This document shows, piece after piece, positions 51,853 to 57,762 of a stretch of 64,000 nucleotides of DNA. A program made the translations under genes and the position numbers. The stretch is from assembly GCF_044647545.1 (NCBI RefSeq), contig NZ_CP172818.1. The stretch is one strand, 5' to 3'. The DNA is from Escherichia coli (lineage in GTDB: Bacteria > Pseudomonadota > Gammaproteobacteria > Enterobacterales > Enterobacteriaceae). Under the pieces are notes generated by a model. It did no database searches. It worked only from the letters and a program-made list of their open reading frames with translations, and was not told where the DNA came from. Position 1 is the first letter of the stretch. The number at the start of each line of letters is the position of its first letter.

Positions 51853-53103
51853 ATGGAAAGTAAAGTAGTTGTTCCGGCACAAGGCAAGAAGATCACCCTG
51901 CAAAACGGCAAACTCAACGTTCCTGAAAATCCGATTATCCCTTACATTGAAGGTGATGGAATCGGTGTAGATGTAACCCCAGCCATGCTGAAAGTGGTCG
52001 ACGCTGCAGTCGAGAAAGCCTATAAAGGCGAGCGTAAAATCTCCTGGATGGAAATTTACACCGGTGAAAAATCCACACAGGTTTATGGTCAGGATGTCTG
52101 GCTACCTGCTGAAACCCTTGATCTGATTCGTGAATATCGCGTTGCCATCAAAGGCCCGCTGACCACTCCGGTTGGTGGTGGTATTCGCTCTCTCAACGTT
52201 GCTCTGCGCCAGGAACTGGATCTCTACATCTGCCTGCGTCCGGTACGTTACTATCAGGGCACTCCAAGCCCGGTTAAACACCCTGAACTGACCGATATGG
52301 TTATCTTCCGTGAAAACTCGGAAGACATTTATGCGGGTATCGAATGGAAAGCAGACTCTGCCGACGCTGAGAAAGTGATTAAATTCCTGCGTGAAGAGAT
52401 GGGCGTGAAGAAAATTCGCTTCCCGGAACATTGCGGCATCGGTATTAAGCCGTGTTCTGAAGAAGGCACCAAACGTCTGGTTCGTGCAGCGATCGAATAC
52501 GCAATTGCTAACGATCGTGACTCTGTGACCCTGGTGCACAAAGGCAACATCATGAAGTTCACCGAAGGCGCGTTTAAAGACTGGGGCTACCAGCTGGCGC
52601 GTGAAGAGTTTGGCGGTGAACTGATCGACGGCGGCCCGTGGCTGAAAGTTAAAAACCCGAACACCGGCAAAGAGATCGTCATTAAAGACGTGATTGCTGA
52701 TGCATTCCTGCAACAGATCCTGCTGCGTCCGGCTGAATATGATGTTATCGCCTGTATGAACCTGAACGGTGACTACATTTCTGACGCCCTGGCAGCGCAG
52801 GTTGGCGGTATCGGTATCGCCCCTGGCGCAAACATCGGTGACGAATGCGCCCTGTTTGAAGCCACCCACGGTACTGCGCCGAAATATGCCGGTCAGGACA
52901 AAGTAAACCCAGGCTCTATTATTCTCTCCGCTGAGATGATGTTACGCCATATGGGCTGGACTGAAGCCGCAGACTTGATTGTTAAAGGTATGGAAGGCGC
53001 AATCAACGCCAAGACTGTAACCTATGACTTCGAACGTCTGATGGAAGGCGCTAAACTGCTGAAATGTTCAGAGTTTGGTGACGCGATCATCAAGAATATG
53101 TAA
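51853..53103 (+). CDS. icd: isocitrate dehydrogenase (NADP); 3' end carries the e14 attachment junction
   Basis: ORF track 416 aa, [38 protein letters not shown]. Confidence 0.97.
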
Positions 53104-53126
53104 TTACTACATGTGTTAAATATTGT

Positions 53127-53157
53127 AACGGGCGTATAACACGCCCGTTGTTTTTTG
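53127..53157 (+). terminator. rho-independent terminator after icd
   Basis: aacgggcg-tataaca-cgcccgtt followed by ttgtttttt. Confidence 0.8.
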
Positions 53158-53172
53158 TTAGGCTGCTAACGG

Positions 53173-53205
53173 TTATCAAAATTTTATCAAAAAAAGTTAT
53201 CAAAA
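53173..53205 (+). repeat. three direct repeats of TTATCAAAA (candidate integrase arm-type or accessory-factor sites near attL)
   Basis: ttatcaaaa at 53173-53181, 53184-53192 and 53197-53205 in the icd-ymfD intergenic region. Confidence 0.4.
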
Positions 53206-53520
53206 CCCCTCGGTAGTTTTGGGGTAGGCTGGCCGGTCAGGTGGTAGTTCTACTACTAGTCTCCCACATAGATATTCCTTAGCTTTTTATTATTGCTGGC
53301 GGACGCTCGTTAATATTTAAGGTCTTCATTGATTAAGACATCCCCAAAGTTAGTTATGTATTCACTGTTATTAGGACAATTATGAATTACCACTCCTTAC
53401 ACCCGCTCAAATATTGTTAAATTGCCGGTTTTGTATCAACTACTCACCCGGGACTCGCCAGGGGACAGCCAACAGGCATTGGGTGCAATCACCTTAGCGT
53501 TCAGGTACATGCGGAATGTA

Positions 53521-53543
53521 AAAAAGGCCGCGAGCGCGGCCCC
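53521..53543 (-). terminator. rho-independent terminator after ymfD
   Basis: plus strand aaaaaggccgcgagcgcggcccc; on minus strand a GC hairpin followed by UUUUU. Confidence 0.7.
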
Positions 53544-53596
53544 TTCACATACATCTTTAGTACTGAGACTGTTTAACCTAGGGAATTATTATCGTA

Positions 53597-54976: not shown

Positions 54977-55167
54977 GCTTTAGGATAGTGTAATGGTAAT
55001 ATTTAATTAAGTGTCATTATATACTTTTCAGTAGGTTAGTTACAATTTTTTGTATCTGTTCAGGCTGACCTAGCTTCGCTGACAGACAATATTGTGATCA
55101 GTAGCACGTATCGAGGAGGAGTAGCGCTACAAATTTGACGCTGGGTGAGAATCTGAAATTGATAGAA

Positions 55168-55235
55168 ATGAAATAATGAAATAATGAAATGATGAAATGA
55201 TGAAATGATGAAATGATGAAATGATGAAATGATGA
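55168..55235. repeat. octanucleotide tandem repeat (ATGAAATR) x8.5 in ymfE/lit divergent intergenic region
   Basis: atgaaat recurs with exact 8-nt period at 55168, 55176, 55184, 55192, 55200, 55208, 55216 and 55224, then a partial atga; spacer base a (x2) then g (x6). Confidence 0.9.
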
Positions 55236-55424
55236 CAGAGTGTCCAGTGGGCACGGATGGTGTCTTACGACATGCTTACCTTAATCGTTCCCAGTGTGCC
55301 TATAGCAGATATTCTAAACATGTCGATAATTCATTACGCATATAGTATCGAACATAGAAAAAACTGAAGATTCATCTTATTTTGTATATACTACCTAGCC
55401 CAACAATGTAGAGGTTAACGAAAA

Positions 55425-56318
55425 ATGCGCTCACCAATTTGTCATCTTTTCTCAGCAATTAATTCATCACCATTTAAGATTGCACCAGAGAAGGAGCAAG
55501 ATCTTAAAACGATAGTTGACGACAAAAAAATTATAATTTCAGTTGTGAGTGAACCTGGTTTTAATATCCGAGTCAGGAAGAATGAGAGTAATAATTCACA
55601 TGAAATAGTTCTAACAGTAGCTTCACTTGAATATATTTGGGCATTTTCCAATTTCTTTTGGGTTTTTACGCAAGAGTACTCCAAATCTCAGAAAAATAAT
55701 GATGAGCACTTTGATTTAACAGGAAAAAATAGGCTTAAAAAGTCTGATGAACTTCTTAAATGGGCAAGGAAAAACTTGCAAACAACAGGTTGCGAATCAT
55801 GGCCTAAAAAATGTCCCAAGCCAGAAGCATATTTACAAGGAAGCGAAGACTCACAAGTTGCTAGCGAGATATTTCTTTGTGCTATTGCTTGGATTCTTCA
55901 TCATGAAATAAGTCATGTTGTTTTACAGCATCCATTGGTCACTACAGCATTCTCCACTCAAGAGGAGCGTGAAGCAGATTCACATGCTACAAAATGGATA
56001 TTAGGCAACCTGTATGAATCCGCTCCTGAATTAAAGAAACGTGCACTTGGCATTGCTACGGCAGTGCTTTGTATACAAAGCTTAGAAGTTGAAAATTACT
56101 TCTGTTTACAAAATACACACCCAGCTGCATATGAGCGTATATATTCGAATATTTCATGCTACCCTGTCGGAAATGAAGAGTTGATTGAAGCTCTATGTAC
56201 AGTGATGCTTCAATATCTTTTCCATGGCAAAAATATCAATGTGAATCTAGATGGGGAGTCCTTTTCATCGATTTTAGGTGATCTTCTCTGTGATATTTCA
56301 CGTCTTACCAGTAACTGA
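55425..56318 (+). CDS. lit: Lit cell-death peptidase (phage T4 late-expression exclusion; zinc metalloprotease)
   Basis: ORF track 297 aa; HExxH zinc motif in ILHHEISHVVLQH; e14 context. Confidence 0.9.
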   Translation: MRSPICHLFSAINSSPFKIAPEKEQDLKTIVDDKKIIISVVSEPGFNIRVRKNESNNSHEIVLTVASLEYIWAFSNFFWVFTQEYSKSQKNNDEHFDLTGKNRLKKSDELLKWARKNLQTTGCESWPKKCPKPEAYLQGSEDSQVASEIFLCAIAWILHHEISHVVLQHPLVTTAFSTQEEREADSHATKWILGNLYESAPELKKRALGIATAVLCIQSLEVENYFCLQNTHPAAYERIYSNISCYPVGNEELIEALCTVMLQYLFHGKNINVNLDGESFSSILGDLLCDISRLTSN

Positions 56319-56408
56319 TATGGCTGTCCGCCGCTCGCTTAAAGTGGACTTTTTAGTTTTTATCATGTGCGGTGAGAAATTCAATGTGGCGTTGAGATGC
56401 TTAAAGGT

Positions 56409-57536
56409 TCACAACGCTACTTTGCTCCATCCTTTACCTCGATCATCATGATAACGATCGGTTTGTTGTTGTGTTTTATGACCAAGTAGTTTTTGTGTGT
56501 CTAACCCCTGTTCTTTATACAGACGTTCAGATAAAGACCTTTGCTCATGGAATGTCGCAGGTGAACCCTCTCCCCAGTCAATTCTTGCTAAATCTCTCGC
56601 TTTACTAAAATTCATCGTCAATGTATTGGCTTTAACCTGCGCTCCGCGCTCTGCTTGTGAAGTTGAACGAAAAAAATGCACTAAGTATGCACTGACTGCA
56701 TAGTCACGGCAGCGGGCTACTACATCGCGTAAACTCCAGTTAATCGCATTGAGGCGAAGAGAAAGAGGAATTGCGATTTTGCTCCCGGTCTTTTCCTGAA
56801 TGACATGAAGATGATCATCCCAAATATCGCTAAATTTCATACGCGAAATATCACCTAACCGCTGACCAGTAACCAGCGCTAACAGCATGGCATTTCCCAT
56901 GTAACGATGAGTAGCGTCTGCGATATCGAAGATTTTTTTCCATTCTTCAAGGCTCAGCCGTTGTCGGGTAATTTTTCTTCTTGGTTGTTTAGTGGCTAAT
57001 GCTGGGTTATAGCCAGGAGGTACTTCTCCGTAGTGCTGCGCCTCTTTGAAAACATCAATCAGGACGGAGCGAACTACTTGTGCCATTCTTGGCCGCCCAG
57101 CGGCGATATACTCATCAAGCAATTGTGCTATATCTCTGACATCAACGGCTGAGATCAACTTCATTCCTGCTCGTTCTCTGAGCAAGGATACTGGTTTAGC
57201 TTTTTGTTTATAGGTGTTGAGTCTTATATCACCACTTTTAAGCCTGTCATCCTGGATCGCTTGATAGCGATCTAACCAGGTTGACGTTGTGATAGCCTTT
57301 CCTTTGCTGGTTGCGATCCTGTCACTGATAGCCAGAATCTGCCGGGTTCTTTGTTCAGCCAGGCGAGTGTTGGCCTCAGTGGCAATAGCGATAGCTTCAG
57401 CTTCGTTTGTTCCCAAAGCATGGAATTTTCCTGTCACTGGATGCTTATACCGCCAATAGACTTTATTTACCTTCCTACTATAAAGCGGATATAAGTTAGG
57501 GACTGAAACATTATTCTTACGCGGTCTGGCTGCCAT
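56409..57536 (-). CDS. intE: e14 tyrosine integrase
   Basis: ORF track 375 aa; C-terminal catalytic region LLGHKTQQQTDRYHDD with conserved His/Arg/Tyr. Confidence 0.92.
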   Translation of the reverse strand: MAARPRKNNVSVPNLYPLYSRKVNKVYWRYKHPVTGKFHALGTNEAEAIAIATEANTRLAEQRTRQILAISDRIATSKGKAITTSTWLDRYQAIQDDRLKSGDIRLNTYKQKAKPVSLLRERAGMKLISAVDVRDIAQLLDEYIAAGRPRMAQVVRSVLIDVFKEAQHYGEVPPGYNPALATKQPRRKITRQRLSLEEWKKIFDIADATHRYMGNAMLLALVTGQRLGDISRMKFSDIWDDHLHVIQEKTGSKIAIPLSLRLNAINWSLRDVVARCRDYAVSAYLVHFFRSTSQAERGAQVKANTLTMNFSKARDLARIDWGEGSPATFHEQRSLSERLYKEQGLDTQKLLGHKTQQQTDRYHDDRGKGWSKVAL

Positions 57537-57762
57537 TACTCAAAATCCGTTGCAAAAGTAATGAGTCATTTTTCTTGATTACAGGTGTTACCAACTCCCC
57601 AACTAACTCGGCGTCCTCACGCACTCGCCATAACCGGCCTTGTTTCATGGCCGGTGGACAAAATAAATTCTGCTTAGCATAACGACGCAATGTGGACACA
57701 CTTGGAGGATTACTTCTGTATTTTTCAGCAGCCCATTCTTCAAGAGTTAACATTTGAAGCAT
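57517..57762 (-). CDS. xisE: e14 excisionase
   Basis: ORF track 81 aa, small basic protein overlapping intE start by 20 nt. Confidence 0.8.
   Translation of the reverse strand: MLQMLTLEEWAAEKYRSNPPSVSTLRRYAKQNLFCPPAMKQGRLWRVREDAELVGELVTPVIKKNDSLLLQRILSNGSQTA

What the first reader, a model, noticed from the sequence alone, without database searches (positions are those of the whole stretch)
52945..57762. att-proximal cargo segment: three non-propagation genes between attL and int/xis
Between the icd junction and intE-xisE the prophage carries only ymfD, ymfE and lit, none needed for phage propagation. Each of the three transcription units has its own terminator or divergent promoter. This is the layout of a moron or defence island carried by an otherwise degraded prophage, which may explain why e14 is retained.
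Basis: inference. Interest (0 to 1): 0.4.

Follow-up and report, generated by a model that had tools for sequence, protein, structure and literature searches.

The report
Variable defence-gene slot in prophage e14
The stretch between the icd attachment junction and the e14 integrase is a low-GC "cargo slot" that related prophages leave empty or fill with different anti-phage systems; here it holds the known Lit abortive-infection protease, a small RNA, and a portable membrane-protein/methyltransferase gene pair of unknown function.

Summary
Two details are wrong. ymfE and ymfD abut (TGA|ATG) and form one operon, so there are two protein-coding units, not three. A fourth cargo gene, the sRNA C0293, was missed.

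The moron/defence-island reading holds up. Homology with e14-like prophages stops at about 53,322 and resumes at about 56,337. The 3.0 kb between has 36% GC, against 51-52% in the flanks.

- In 11 other E. coli loci the slot holds 10 different gene sets, including Septu-like, DarTG, PD-Lambda-5, Kiwa and Tmn.
- In 66 icd-integrated relatives from other Enterobacterales it is empty in 49, as in phage 21.
- It is filled in 17, for example with Gabija, DRT8, RosmerTA or DarTG.

Lit is a textbook abortive-infection protease.

The new lead is ymfE-ymfD. This pair is always adjacent and recurs without lit in about 151 E. coli genomes (Qin/Rac-like prophages). It also sits at P2/186-like prophage edges and in islands of marine bacteria. 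It is a candidate defence or exclusion module, but this is unproven.

The idea that the cargo explains e14 retention is untested.

The parts
51853..53103 (+). icd (isocitrate dehydrogenase). The last 165 nt (52939-53103) are supplied by e14 and mark the attL junction.
   Evidence: ORF. MG1655 annotation maps the e14 start to 165 nt before the icd stop. The attR duplicate icdC matches window 52939-53154 at 91.7%.
53126..53150 (+). icd intrinsic terminator carried by the prophage (10-bp stem plus U6).
   Evidence: The stem shows compensatory differences between the window and MG1655.
53104..53322 (.). Conserved att arm of e14-like elements, including three TTATCAAAA repeats (53172-53205) that are probable integrase arm-type sites. 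This is the left border of the variable slot.
   Evidence: Homology with 10 e14-like prophages ends at 53158-53325. The repeats are invariant in the alignment and appear as a tandem repeat. A weak Rfam STnc150-like match covers this stretch.
53323..56336 (.). Variable cargo slot (3.0 kb, GC 0.356).
   Evidence: No homology to other e14-like prophages between the conserved flanks. Composition.
53441..53512 (+). sRNA C0293 / co293 (b4806 in MG1655).
   Evidence: Annotated ncRNA in NC_000913.3, with sequence identical in the window. Regulation of HcaR and FadR is described in PMC12803456, which cites Madikonda 2020.
53520..53543 (-). Intrinsic terminator of the ymfE-ymfD operon (GGGGCCGCG-CUCG-CGGCC hairpin followed by U6).
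   Evidence: Sequence; fold.
53597..54262 (-). ymfD: class I SAM-dependent methyltransferase, 221 aa.
   Evidence: Pfam Methyltransf_12/23/TehB. AF2 model has pLDDT 90.5. Structural neighbours are small-molecule and tRNA methyltransferases (Trm9, MfnG, NNMT, TehB). No DNA amino-methyltransferase motif is present.
54263..54958 (-). ymfE: 4-TM inner-membrane protein, 231 aa if it starts at ATG 54958. RefSeq uses GTG at 54967.
   Evidence: ORF. No Pfam, PHROG, PADLOC or PDB sequence match. Homologue N-termini M[LF]EPPK favour ATG 54958. AF2 model has pLDDT 88.6 and is all-alpha.
55016..55045 (-). Best sigma-70-like promoter candidate for ymfE-ymfD (TTGTAA-18-TATAAT, 10 of 12 positions).
   Evidence: This is a consensus match only.
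55168..55235 (.). 8-bp tandem repeat (ATGAAATG x 8.5) in the divergent ymfE/lit control region.
55425..56318 (+). lit: Lit cell-death peptidase (Peptidase U49) with the HEISH zinc motif at residues 160-164.
   Evidence: Pfam PF10463 at 374 bits. PADLOC Lit at 8.5e-124. Motif found.
56409..57536 (-). intE: lambda-type tyrosine integrase. This is the right border of the slot.
   Evidence: Pfam Arm-DNA-bind_1 plus Phage_integrase. Homology with relatives resumes at 56337-56427.
57517..57762 (-). xisE: excisionase.
   Evidence: Pfam Exc.

Best explanation
The segment is the cargo slot of the e14/phage-21 family of icd-integrating prophages. It is a permissive site between the integrase stop codon and the attP arm where foreign, low-GC accessory modules are inserted. 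Modules are exchanged by recombination in the conserved flanks (icd plus att arm on one side, int-xis on the other).

In this window the slot holds three independent modules.

1. lit is a stand-alone abortive-infection metalloprotease. By established knowledge it cleaves EF-Tu when the T4 major-capsid Gol peptide appears.
2. ymfE-ymfD is a translationally coupled operon encoding a 4-TM membrane protein and a small class I SAM methyltransferase. It travels as a fixed pair between prophage accessory sites. I infer that it is a membrane-anchored methyltransferase module acting in phage exclusion or defence, or in envelope modification.
3. C0293 is an sRNA that acts on host metabolic regulators.

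Shown here: the slot boundaries, its variability, the defence content of the sister slots, the identity of Lit, and the portability and pairing of ymfED. Inferred: expression from the repressed prophage, and any defence role for ymfED.
For: Slot definition. blastn against 10 e14-like E. coli prophages shows homology ending at 53158-53325 and resuming at 56337-56427. Composition is GC 0.356 and GC3 0.27, against about 0.52 and 0.53-0.64 in the flanks.

Variability in E. coli. Eleven other loci carry 10 different cargo sets:
- Septu-like PtuA/PDC-M01 (2e-239), seen twice
- DarT/DarG (1e-42 and 6e-58)
- PD-Lambda-5 (2e-121)
- KwaA/KwaB (4e-59)
- Tmn (1e-50)
- PDC-M26A-like plus DUF2357
- PDC-S02-like
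- GmrSD_N
- two sets of unknown function
(scores)

Other genera. An IntE scan of one genome per species returned 80 loci. In 66, icd lies directly after int. Of those, 49 slots are empty (104-197 bp, median 128) and 17 are filled (494-7213 bp); none contains lit, ymfD or ymfE. Filled slots include Gabija, PD-Lambda-5, a PD-T4-6-like kinase, Septu-like (twice), DarTG, PDC-S06, PDC-S02-like, DRT8 and RosmerTA.

Phage 21. In this functional phage int is followed after 12 bp by the attP arm sites and the icd fragment, so the slot is empty.

Module independence.
- ymfE-ymfD alone, at 69% nucleotide identity and without lit, occurs in about 151 E. coli genomes inside Qin/Rac-like prophages, between the replication genes and hokD/Q.
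- It lies after gpD-ogr of a P2-like prophage in Providencia, and after int of 186-like prophages in Yersinia and Serratia.
- In Salmonella it lies next to SMEK and a GT4-conflict glycosyltransferase.
- It also occurs in Marinobacter and Neptuniibacter islands, and next to an nSTAND3 protein in a remote relative.
- The pair is adjacent and in the same order in all 12 loci where both sides are readable.
- Lit homologues have a different distribution (Pseudomonas, Polynucleobacter). In one case the homologue sits in an island with an integrase, a reverse transcriptase and a TIR-SIR2 protein.

Independence from the lytic programme. ymfD and ymfE are not SOS-induced, whereas intE, ymfJ and ymfM are (PMC11002266).

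Exchange by flanking homology. The window is 100% identical to K-12 over 53144-57801. It differs at 31 sites in 52942-53143 and 33 sites in 57802-58130, and its chromosome backbone is that of wild strains.
Against: - YmfD and YmfE match no known or candidate defence family. The only hit is a weak partial mad2 match (8.6e-5). They match no PHROG.
- The YmfE fold search returned only generic helical hits.
- Ten of the 28 filled sister slots have no recognisable defence gene, and one carries an alkyl sulfatase.
- C0293 is reported to act on metabolism, not on phage.
- Promoter-like sites are not enriched over shuffles.
- From general knowledge, wild-type lit is poorly expressed and the exclusion phenotype was defined with lit(Con) up-promoter mutants. 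The benefit in the native state is therefore uncertain.
Confidence: 0.85

Rival explanations
1. The slot is simply a neutral 'dumping ground'. DNA between int and att has no function, so any insertion is tolerated. The defence genes seen there reflect the general make-up of mobile accessory DNA rather than selection for defence at this site. The K-12 cargo (methyltransferase, membrane protein, sRNA) is mostly not defensive.
For: Forty-nine of 66 relatives do well with an empty slot. Ten of 28 filled slots have no defence hit, and one carries an alkyl sulfatase. IS elements and an integrase remnant occur in the slot. YmfD and YmfE have no defence-family match. C0293 targets metabolic regulators.
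Against: Eighteen of 28 filled sister slots carry at least one protein matching a known or candidate defence family, most with very strong scores. The same systems recur in different genera: Septu-like four times, DarTG twice, PD-Lambda-5 twice. ymfED is itself found repeatedly at other prophage accessory sites and beside conflict-system genes.
Confidence: 0.15
2. ymfE-ymfD is a lysogenic-conversion module rather than an intracellular immune system. The membrane protein presents a lipid-linked or envelope substrate to the methyltransferase. The modification alters the cell surface or membrane, changing phage adsorption or DNA entry, or some host physiological trait.
For: The pairing of a 4-TM protein with a small-molecule-type class I methyltransferase is invariant. 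The structural neighbours are small-molecule O/N-methyltransferases and TehB. The position next to int and att is, from general knowledge, where P22, Sf6 and SfV-type phages keep their O-antigen modification genes. YmfE has invariant polar residues (H86, N87, K91, R96, H142, E159) compatible with a binding or catalytic site.
Against: No homology to known envelope-modifying enzymes. The best Foldseek hit is the tRNA methyltransferase Trm9. No experimental phenotype exists; a ymfD knockout grows normally (PMC12096079).
Confidence: 0.3
3. The cargo arrived by tandem integration of a second icd-targeting element, followed by loss of that element's integrase and core (accretion), rather than by insertion into a dedicated slot.
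For: Strain 1190 (L009) shows this intermediate. It has a second att-like copy (75% identical to 52957-53181) and an integrase remnant (74% identical to 56432-56677) nested inside the slot. Several loci from other genera show only icd 3' fragments next to int, which indicates tandem arrays.
Against: In the window and in MG1655 no internal att-like or int-like remnant lies between 53323 and 56336; the only second copy is icdC at attR. The three modules have separate phylogenetic distributions, which points to several events.
Confidence: 0.2

Closest known systems
Cryptic prophage e14 of E. coli K-12 (icd-ymfD-ymfE-lit-intE-xisE), with Lit as the abortive-infection protease
   Same: Same genes and order. 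The window is 100% identical over 53144-57801. It has the same attL inside icd and the same chimeric ymfN, the marker of degradation.
   Different: The window is not K-12. The chromosome backbone is identical to wild isolates. The e14-borne icd 3' end, the ymfH region and everything beyond 60595 differ from K-12 e14 by 1-7%.
[quoted passage not shown] 2022, PMC9122126)
   Same: Conserved flanking genes, highly variable content rich in defence systems, and low-GC cargo. ymfED itself sits at P2/186-like prophage edges in Providencia, Yersinia and Serratia.
   Different: This is a different phage family (lambdoid, icd-integrating) and a different position (between the int stop codon and the attP arm). 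Most relatives outside E. coli have the slot empty. I found no paper describing this slot.
Phage 21 (functional lambdoid phage using the same icd attB)
   Same: Related integrase (60% identity), the same target gene, and its own icd 3' fragment and terminator.
   Different: int is followed after 12 bp by the attP arm sites, with no cargo between int and att. Its accessory genes (sitABCD) lie on the other side of attP.
Morons of lambdoid phages (Juhala/Hendrix concept; lambda rexAB, sieB, bor, lom)
   Same: Extra DNA absent from relatives, deviant composition, its own terminator, and transcription apparently independent of the lytic programme.
   Different: Promoters are not demonstrated here. 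One unit is a two-gene operon and one is an sRNA.
Serotype-converting cassettes (gtrABC, oac) next to int-attP in P22, SfV and Sf6-type phages (from general knowledge)
   Same: Membrane-protein-containing accessory operon placed directly beside int and att, and expressed in the lysogen. This is a possible functional analogue of ymfED.
   Different: There is no sequence or fold similarity. The enzyme here is a soluble SAM methyltransferase, not a glycosyl- or acetyltransferase.

Membership tests
Moron (autonomous accessory unit in a phage genome) | Extra DNA between genes that are adjacent in related phages | tested here: met
   int abuts the att arm in phage 21 and in 49 of 66 relatives. In the window 3.0 kb is inserted.
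Moron (autonomous accessory unit in a phage genome) | Nucleotide composition different from the surrounding phage genome | tested here: met
   GC 0.356 against 0.44 for int-xis and 0.51 for the rest of e14. GC3 is 0.27.
Moron (autonomous accessory unit in a phage genome) | Own promoter and own terminator | tested here: inconclusive
   There is a strong terminator after ymfD but only a weak hairpin after lit. A promoter-like site lies at 55045-55016, but such sites are not above the shuffle expectation.
Moron (autonomous accessory unit in a phage genome) | Expressed from the repressed prophage, independent of lytic genes | not testable with these tools
   Indirect evidence only: ymfD and ymfE are flat during SOS while intE, ymfJ and ymfM are induced (PMC11002266).
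Prophage defence hotspot (in the sense of Rousset 2022) | Conserved flanking core genes that define a fixed position | tested here: met
   icd plus att arm on the left and int-xis on the right are conserved at 84-97%.
Prophage defence hotspot (in the sense of Rousset 2022) | High diversity of content among related elements | tested here: met
   Ten distinct cargo sets in 11 other E. coli loci. Seventeen filled slots in other genera, none like e14.
Prophage defence hotspot (in the sense of Rousset 2022) | Content enriched in known defence systems | tested here: met
   Eighteen of 28 filled sister slots have PADLOC or Pfam defence-family hits. No formal enrichment statistic against a background was computed.
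Prophage defence hotspot (in the sense of Rousset 2022) | Cargo experimentally protects against phage | not testable with these tools
   Lit is known from the literature (PMC6379469). ymfED is untested.
Lit / Peptidase U49 | Full-length match to the family model above its cut-off | tested here: met
   PF10463 at 374.4 bits against a cut-off of 23.9. PADLOC Lit at 8.5e-124 over residues 2-295.
Lit / Peptidase U49 | HEXXH zinc-metalloprotease motif | tested here: met
   HEISH at residues 160-164.
Lit / Peptidase U49 | Gol-peptide-dependent cleavage of EF-Tu | not testable with these tools
   Established for the identical K-12 protein, from the literature.
DNA methyltransferase (restriction-modification or orphan anti-restriction) as the role of YmfD | Catalytic motif IV (D/N/S)PP(Y/F/W) of DNA amino-methyltransferases, or similarity to a DNA methyltransferase family | tested here: not met
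   The YmfD sequence contains no PP dipeptide. Pfam hits are generic Methyltransf_12/23/TehB. Foldseek neighbours are tRNA or small-molecule methyltransferases.
Any catalogued defence system (PADLOC-DB v2) as the identity of ymfE-ymfD | Significant full-length match of both proteins to the models of one system | tested here: not met
   YmfE has no hit. YmfD has only a partial mad2 match at 8.6e-5.

The most novel reading that the evidence does not exclude
ymfE-ymfD is an uncharacterised two-gene anti-phage or superinfection-exclusion system: a membrane protein that recruits or controls a small-molecule-type SAM methyltransferase. It is carried as a portable cassette in accessory slots of lambdoid and P2/186-like prophages and in genomic islands across Gammaproteobacteria. 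It has been sitting unrecognised in E. coli K-12. More broadly, the int-attL slot of icd-integrating prophages is a defence hotspot usable for discovering further systems; several slots hold only unknown genes.
Probability: 0.35. Interest if true: 0.6.

Novelty: new member of a known kind. Interest (0 to 1): 0.38.

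Why it matters
The region itself is textbook: e14, Lit and integration into icd. The general rule that prophages keep defence 'morons' at their ends is also known.

What the follow-up adds is twofold. First, this particular int-att junction behaves as a genuine swap-in/swap-out defence slot across Enterobacterales, with a clear empty ancestral state. That gives a clean place to mine the unknown cargo genes.

Second, two long-standing K-12 'y-genes', ymfE and ymfD, form a conserved mobile pair that keeps company with defence genes. Because they are in K-12, with Keio and ASKA resources available, a defence or exclusion role could be tested within days.

Tried and rejected
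- Sequence search of YmfE against the PDB found nothing. PHROGs has no family for YmfD, YmfE or Lit.
- Foldseek for YmfD gives many equally distant class I methyltransferases (TM about 0.55-0.60). The substrate cannot be assigned.
- The profile search for YmfE found about 250 clusters. The ten remote relatives scanned have no significant Pfam domain (one has a sub-threshold BacA match).
- The primary e14 paper (Mehta 2004, PMC331406) is not held. Searches by protein accession and by b-number found nothing relevant.
- Searches for a published description of an icd/e14 defence hotspot found none. The main text of Hochhauser 2023 does not mention icd or e14.
- I considered whether the NC-SV sRNA svsR occupies the same slot. 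It does not: it lies at the 3' end of cI and is only 58% similar to co293.
- The m6A study of a ymfD knockout is uninformative, because all four unrelated knockouts lost most peaks.
- The promoter scan does not exceed chance.
- The Rfam matches (STnc100-like and STnc150-like) are below their gathering scores and are reported only as side observations.

Full report
**What is at the coordinates**

The window carries icd (51853-53103, +). After it come ymfD (53597-54262, -), ymfE (54263-54958/54967, -), lit (55425-56318, +), intE (56409-57536, -) and xisE (57517-57762, -).

- Pfam assigns YmfD to generic class I SAM methyltransferases, Lit to Peptidase_U49 (374 bits), IntE to lambda-type integrases and XisE to excisionases. 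YmfE has no family.
- PADLOC recognises only Lit (8.5e-124).
- The MG1655 record places the left end of e14 165 nt before the icd stop, which is window 52939. It also annotates an sRNA, C0293 (b4806), between icd and ymfD, at the position equal to window 53441-53512.

**The block is compositionally foreign**

GC is 0.356 in 53323-56336, against 0.521 in the chromosome to the left, 0.441 in int-xis and 0.511 in the rest of e14. GC3 is 0.27 for ymfD, ymfE and lit, against 0.50-0.64 for icd, mnmA, nudJ, rluE and ymfN.

**Transcription-unit layout**

- ymfE ends TGA and ymfD begins with the next base (TGA|ATG). No hairpin separates them.
- A strong hairpin plus U6 follows ymfD on the minus strand at 53543-53520.
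- The homologous pairs elsewhere keep the same order, with 0-13 nt between the genes. ymfE-ymfD is therefore one operon.
- lit is divergent from this operon across a 466-bp spacer that contains an 8-bp tandem repeat (ATGAAATG x 8.5, 55168-55235). Only a weak hairpin follows lit.
- icd has its own prophage-borne terminator at 53126-53150.

There are thus two protein-coding units plus an sRNA, not three units. Promoter-like matches exist, the best at 55045-55016 upstream of ymfE. Their number in the region is not above the shuffled expectation, so promoters remain inferred. Published SOS time-course data show ymfD and ymfE flat while intE, ymfJ and ymfM rise late. This fits independence from the lytic programme (PMC11002266).

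**Where the window comes from**

It is not K-12.

- The backbone 43000-52900 is 100% identical to wild isolates and differs from BW25113/MG1655 by about 1.4%.
- 53144-57801 (att arm, C0293, ymfD, ymfE, lit, intE, xisE) has no difference from MG1655.
- The e14-borne icd 3' end and terminator (52942-53143) have 31 differences, 57802-58130 has 33, and 60595-64000 has about 100.

With 2-3% divergence elsewhere in the element, zero changes in 4.66 kb points to recent exchange of this block. The breakpoints lie in the conserved flanks.

**Comparative test in E. coli**

intE-xisE-like DNA occurs in 502 of 5,426 complete genomes. Of the matching records, 282 are 99% identical or more (the listed examples are mostly K-12 laboratory derivatives) and about 220 are 80-95% identical.

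I opened ten of the diverged loci and one deposited 'phage' record that is really a prophage with its flanks. In all of them homology to the window ends at 53158-53325, after the icd terminator and three invariant TTATCAAAA repeats. It resumes at 56337-56427, just below the int stop.

The content of the interval differs from locus to locus (annotations; family scans):

| Cargo | Number of loci | Notes |
|---|---|---|
| Septu-like AAA ATPase + HNH | 2 | one also has an IS200 |
| 848-aa protein with a PDC-M26A-like region + DUF2357 protein | 1 | |
| DarT + DarG | 1 | |
| PD-Lambda-5 (ATPase + Dam-like methylase) | 1 | |
| Kiwa, broken | 1 | plus one unknown gene |
| Tmn-like protein, 1213 aa | 1 | |
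| Unknown genes | 2 | one locus has a nested second att copy and an integrase remnant |
| PDC-S02-like pair | 1 | |
| GmrSD_N protein + unknown | 1 | |

**Comparative test in other genera**

A scan of one genome per species with IntE returned 80 loci from Enterobacterales.

- In 66 of them icd lies directly downstream of int.
- In 49 of those, the int-stop to icd-stop distance is only 104-197 bp (median 128), so the slot is empty.
- In 17 it is 494-7213 bp.
- None contains a Lit, YmfD or YmfE homologue.

Filled slots carry the following:

- Gabija (Citrobacter braakii)
- PD-Lambda-5 (Klebsiella)
- a PD-T4-6/mad6-like kinase (Kosakonia)
- Septu-like pairs (two loci)
- DarTG (Citrobacter)
- PDC-S06/PrrC-like (Morganella)
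- PDC-S02-like (Erwinia)
- DRT8 reverse transcriptase plus a PD-(D/E)xK nuclease (Morganella)
- RosmerTA (Tatumella, in the same slot as one of the Septu-like pairs)

Eight have no defence hit, and one of these encodes an alkyl sulfatase. Overall 18 of 28 filled sister slots carry at least one defence-family protein.

Phage 21 is a functional lambdoid phage using the same attB, with an integrase 60% identical to IntE. Its attP arm sites start 12 bp after int, followed by a terminator and the icd fragment. It has nothing in the slot.

**The three modules are independent**

*lit.* The protein has the HEISH motif at residues 160-164 and is the classical EF-Tu-cleaving abortive-infection protease (literature summarised in PMC6379469). 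Its homologues (73 clusters) are mainly from Pseudomonas, Polynucleobacter and metagenomes. One Pseudomonas viridiflava copy lies in an island with an integrase, a reverse transcriptase and a TIR-SIR2 protein, without ymfED.

*C0293.* Reported to regulate HcaR and FadR post-transcriptionally (PMC12803456 citing Madikonda 2020).

*ymfE-ymfD.* This is the part that is not explained by prior knowledge.

- A distant-mode DNA search found the pair, at 69% identity and without lit, in about 151 E. coli genomes.
- In three loci opened it sits in Qin/Rac-like prophages, antisense between the replication genes (next to an SMEK-domain gene) and hokD...Q.
- Protein searches and context look-ups place the pair:
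  - after gpD-ogr at the edge of a P2-like prophage in Providencia
  - directly after the integrase at the edge of 186-like prophages in Yersinia and Serratia, frameshifted in Serratia
  - beside SMEK, a 'GT4-conflict' glycosyltransferase and Int-Xis of a Rac-like prophage in Salmonella
  - between IS elements and a YoeB/YefM pair in Marinobacter, and also in Neptuniibacter
  - in metagenomic contigs
- A remote YmfE relative (profile E 6e-12) is again followed by a 219-aa methyltransferase and preceded by a 1563-aa nSTAND3 protein.
- In all 12 loci where both sides are readable, the order ymfE then ymfD is kept.

**What the two proteins look like**

*YmfD.* The AF2 model (pLDDT 90.5) is a Rossmann-fold methyltransferase. 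Its nearest structures are tRNA or small-molecule enzymes (Trm9, MfnG, NNMT, DhpI, TehB) at TM about 0.55-0.60. It lacks the DNA amino-methyltransferase PP motif. A ymfD knockout grows normally, and its m6A phenotype is not specific (PMC12096079).

**Interpretation**

The best-supported account has four parts.

1. The interval between the int stop codon and the attP arm is a permissive cargo slot in the e14/21 integrase family.
2. It is empty in the ancestral or common state. In the E. coli e14 lineage it was loaded in every one of the 11 loci I opened.
3. Its content turns over by recombination in the conserved flanks, and occasionally by tandem integration followed by decay (strain 1190).
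4. Most of its identifiable cargo is anti-phage.

In this window the cargo is Lit, C0293 and ymfED. By position, portability, strict pairing and neighbours, ymfED is a reasonable candidate for a defence, exclusion or envelope-modifying module. There is no direct evidence for this, and no match to any catalogued system.

**Novelty**

The general principle, morons and defence systems at prophage ends or in hotspots, is established (PMC9122126; PMC12829572). e14 and Lit are classical. I found no description of this specific slot or of ymfED as a mobile pair in the searchable literature. That search does not cover subscription journals or supplementary tables.

I therefore rate the finding as a new member of a known kind, of moderate interest. 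The most valuable outcome is a cheap, direct experiment on ymfED in K-12. Whether the cargo explains why e14 is retained remains untested. The exact cargo is present in only about 280 of 5,426 complete genomes, and the listed examples are mostly laboratory K-12 derivatives.

Noticed in passing
window 57785-58137 (-): The 'ymfH' ORF overlaps an Rfam STnc100-like match (57922-58137, 39.5 bits against a gathering score of 47, E 4e-6) with a strongly conserved core (CACCGGGAGGCACCCGGCACCA). The stretch is 96-97% conserved among e14-like prophages, yet it is annotated as a frameshifted pseudogene in most of them. It is more likely an sRNA locus than a protein gene.
   Followed up: partly
window 53117-53322 (-): A weak Rfam match to the Salmonella Hfq-binding sRNA STnc150 (27.5 bits, gathering score 60, E 0.006) covers the icd terminator and the TTATCAAAA arm-type repeats. 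This suggests STnc150 derives from the att arm of an icd-integrating element.
   Followed up: partly
window 55168-55235: A near-perfect (98% matches) 8-bp tandem repeat (ATGAAATG x 8.5) lies in the divergent ymfE/lit control region. It creates a spurious 64-aa ORF (55060-55254, -). Its role is unknown; it could be a spacing or phase-variable element, or a set of binding sites.
   Followed up: no
window 52942-53143, 57802-58130, 60595-64000 compared with 53144-57801: The e14 copy is a mosaic relative to K-12. There are zero differences across att arm, cargo, int and xis, but 1-7% divergence in the e14-borne icd 3' end (with compensatory changes in the terminator stem), in the ymfH region and in the late region. 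The chromosome backbone matches wild strains, not K-12.
   Followed up: yes
L009 (E. coli strain 1190) 6032-6531: Inside the slot lie a second att-like copy (75% identical to window 52957-53181) and an integrase remnant (74% identical to 56432-56677). This is evidence of tandem integration followed by decay as one route of cargo accretion.
   Followed up: partly
window 54958-54976: The ymfE start is probably mis-annotated. Homologues begin M[LF]EPPK, which corresponds to the ATG at 54958 (231 aa) preceded by AGGTGA. The alternatives are the GTG at 54967 used by RefSeq and the GTG at 54976, the longest ORF.
   Followed up: yes
L016-L018 7768-8667; L026/L027 about 1017-1959: An SMEK-domain protein (299 aa) is the constant neighbour of the Qin-type ymfED pair in E. 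coli and Salmonella. In Salmonella it is joined by a 'GT4-conflict' glycosyltransferase next to Int-Xis. These may form a larger accessory or defence cluster.
   Followed up: no
L035 10259-12253; L010 3881-7003; L009 6537-7872; L062, L097, L102 slots: Several sister slots hold genes with no defence-family match: a 1040-aa protein, small pairs, and in one case an alkyl sulfatase. The unknown ones are candidates for new systems. The sulfatase shows the slot is not exclusively defensive.
   Followed up: partly
L044 (record titled Sporosarcina psychrophila MAG): A contig labelled as a Firmicutes MAG carries an IntE at 94% identity, an icd fragment at 100% identity and a Septu-like pair. It is almost certainly an enterobacterial contaminant contig in that bin.
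   Followed up: no
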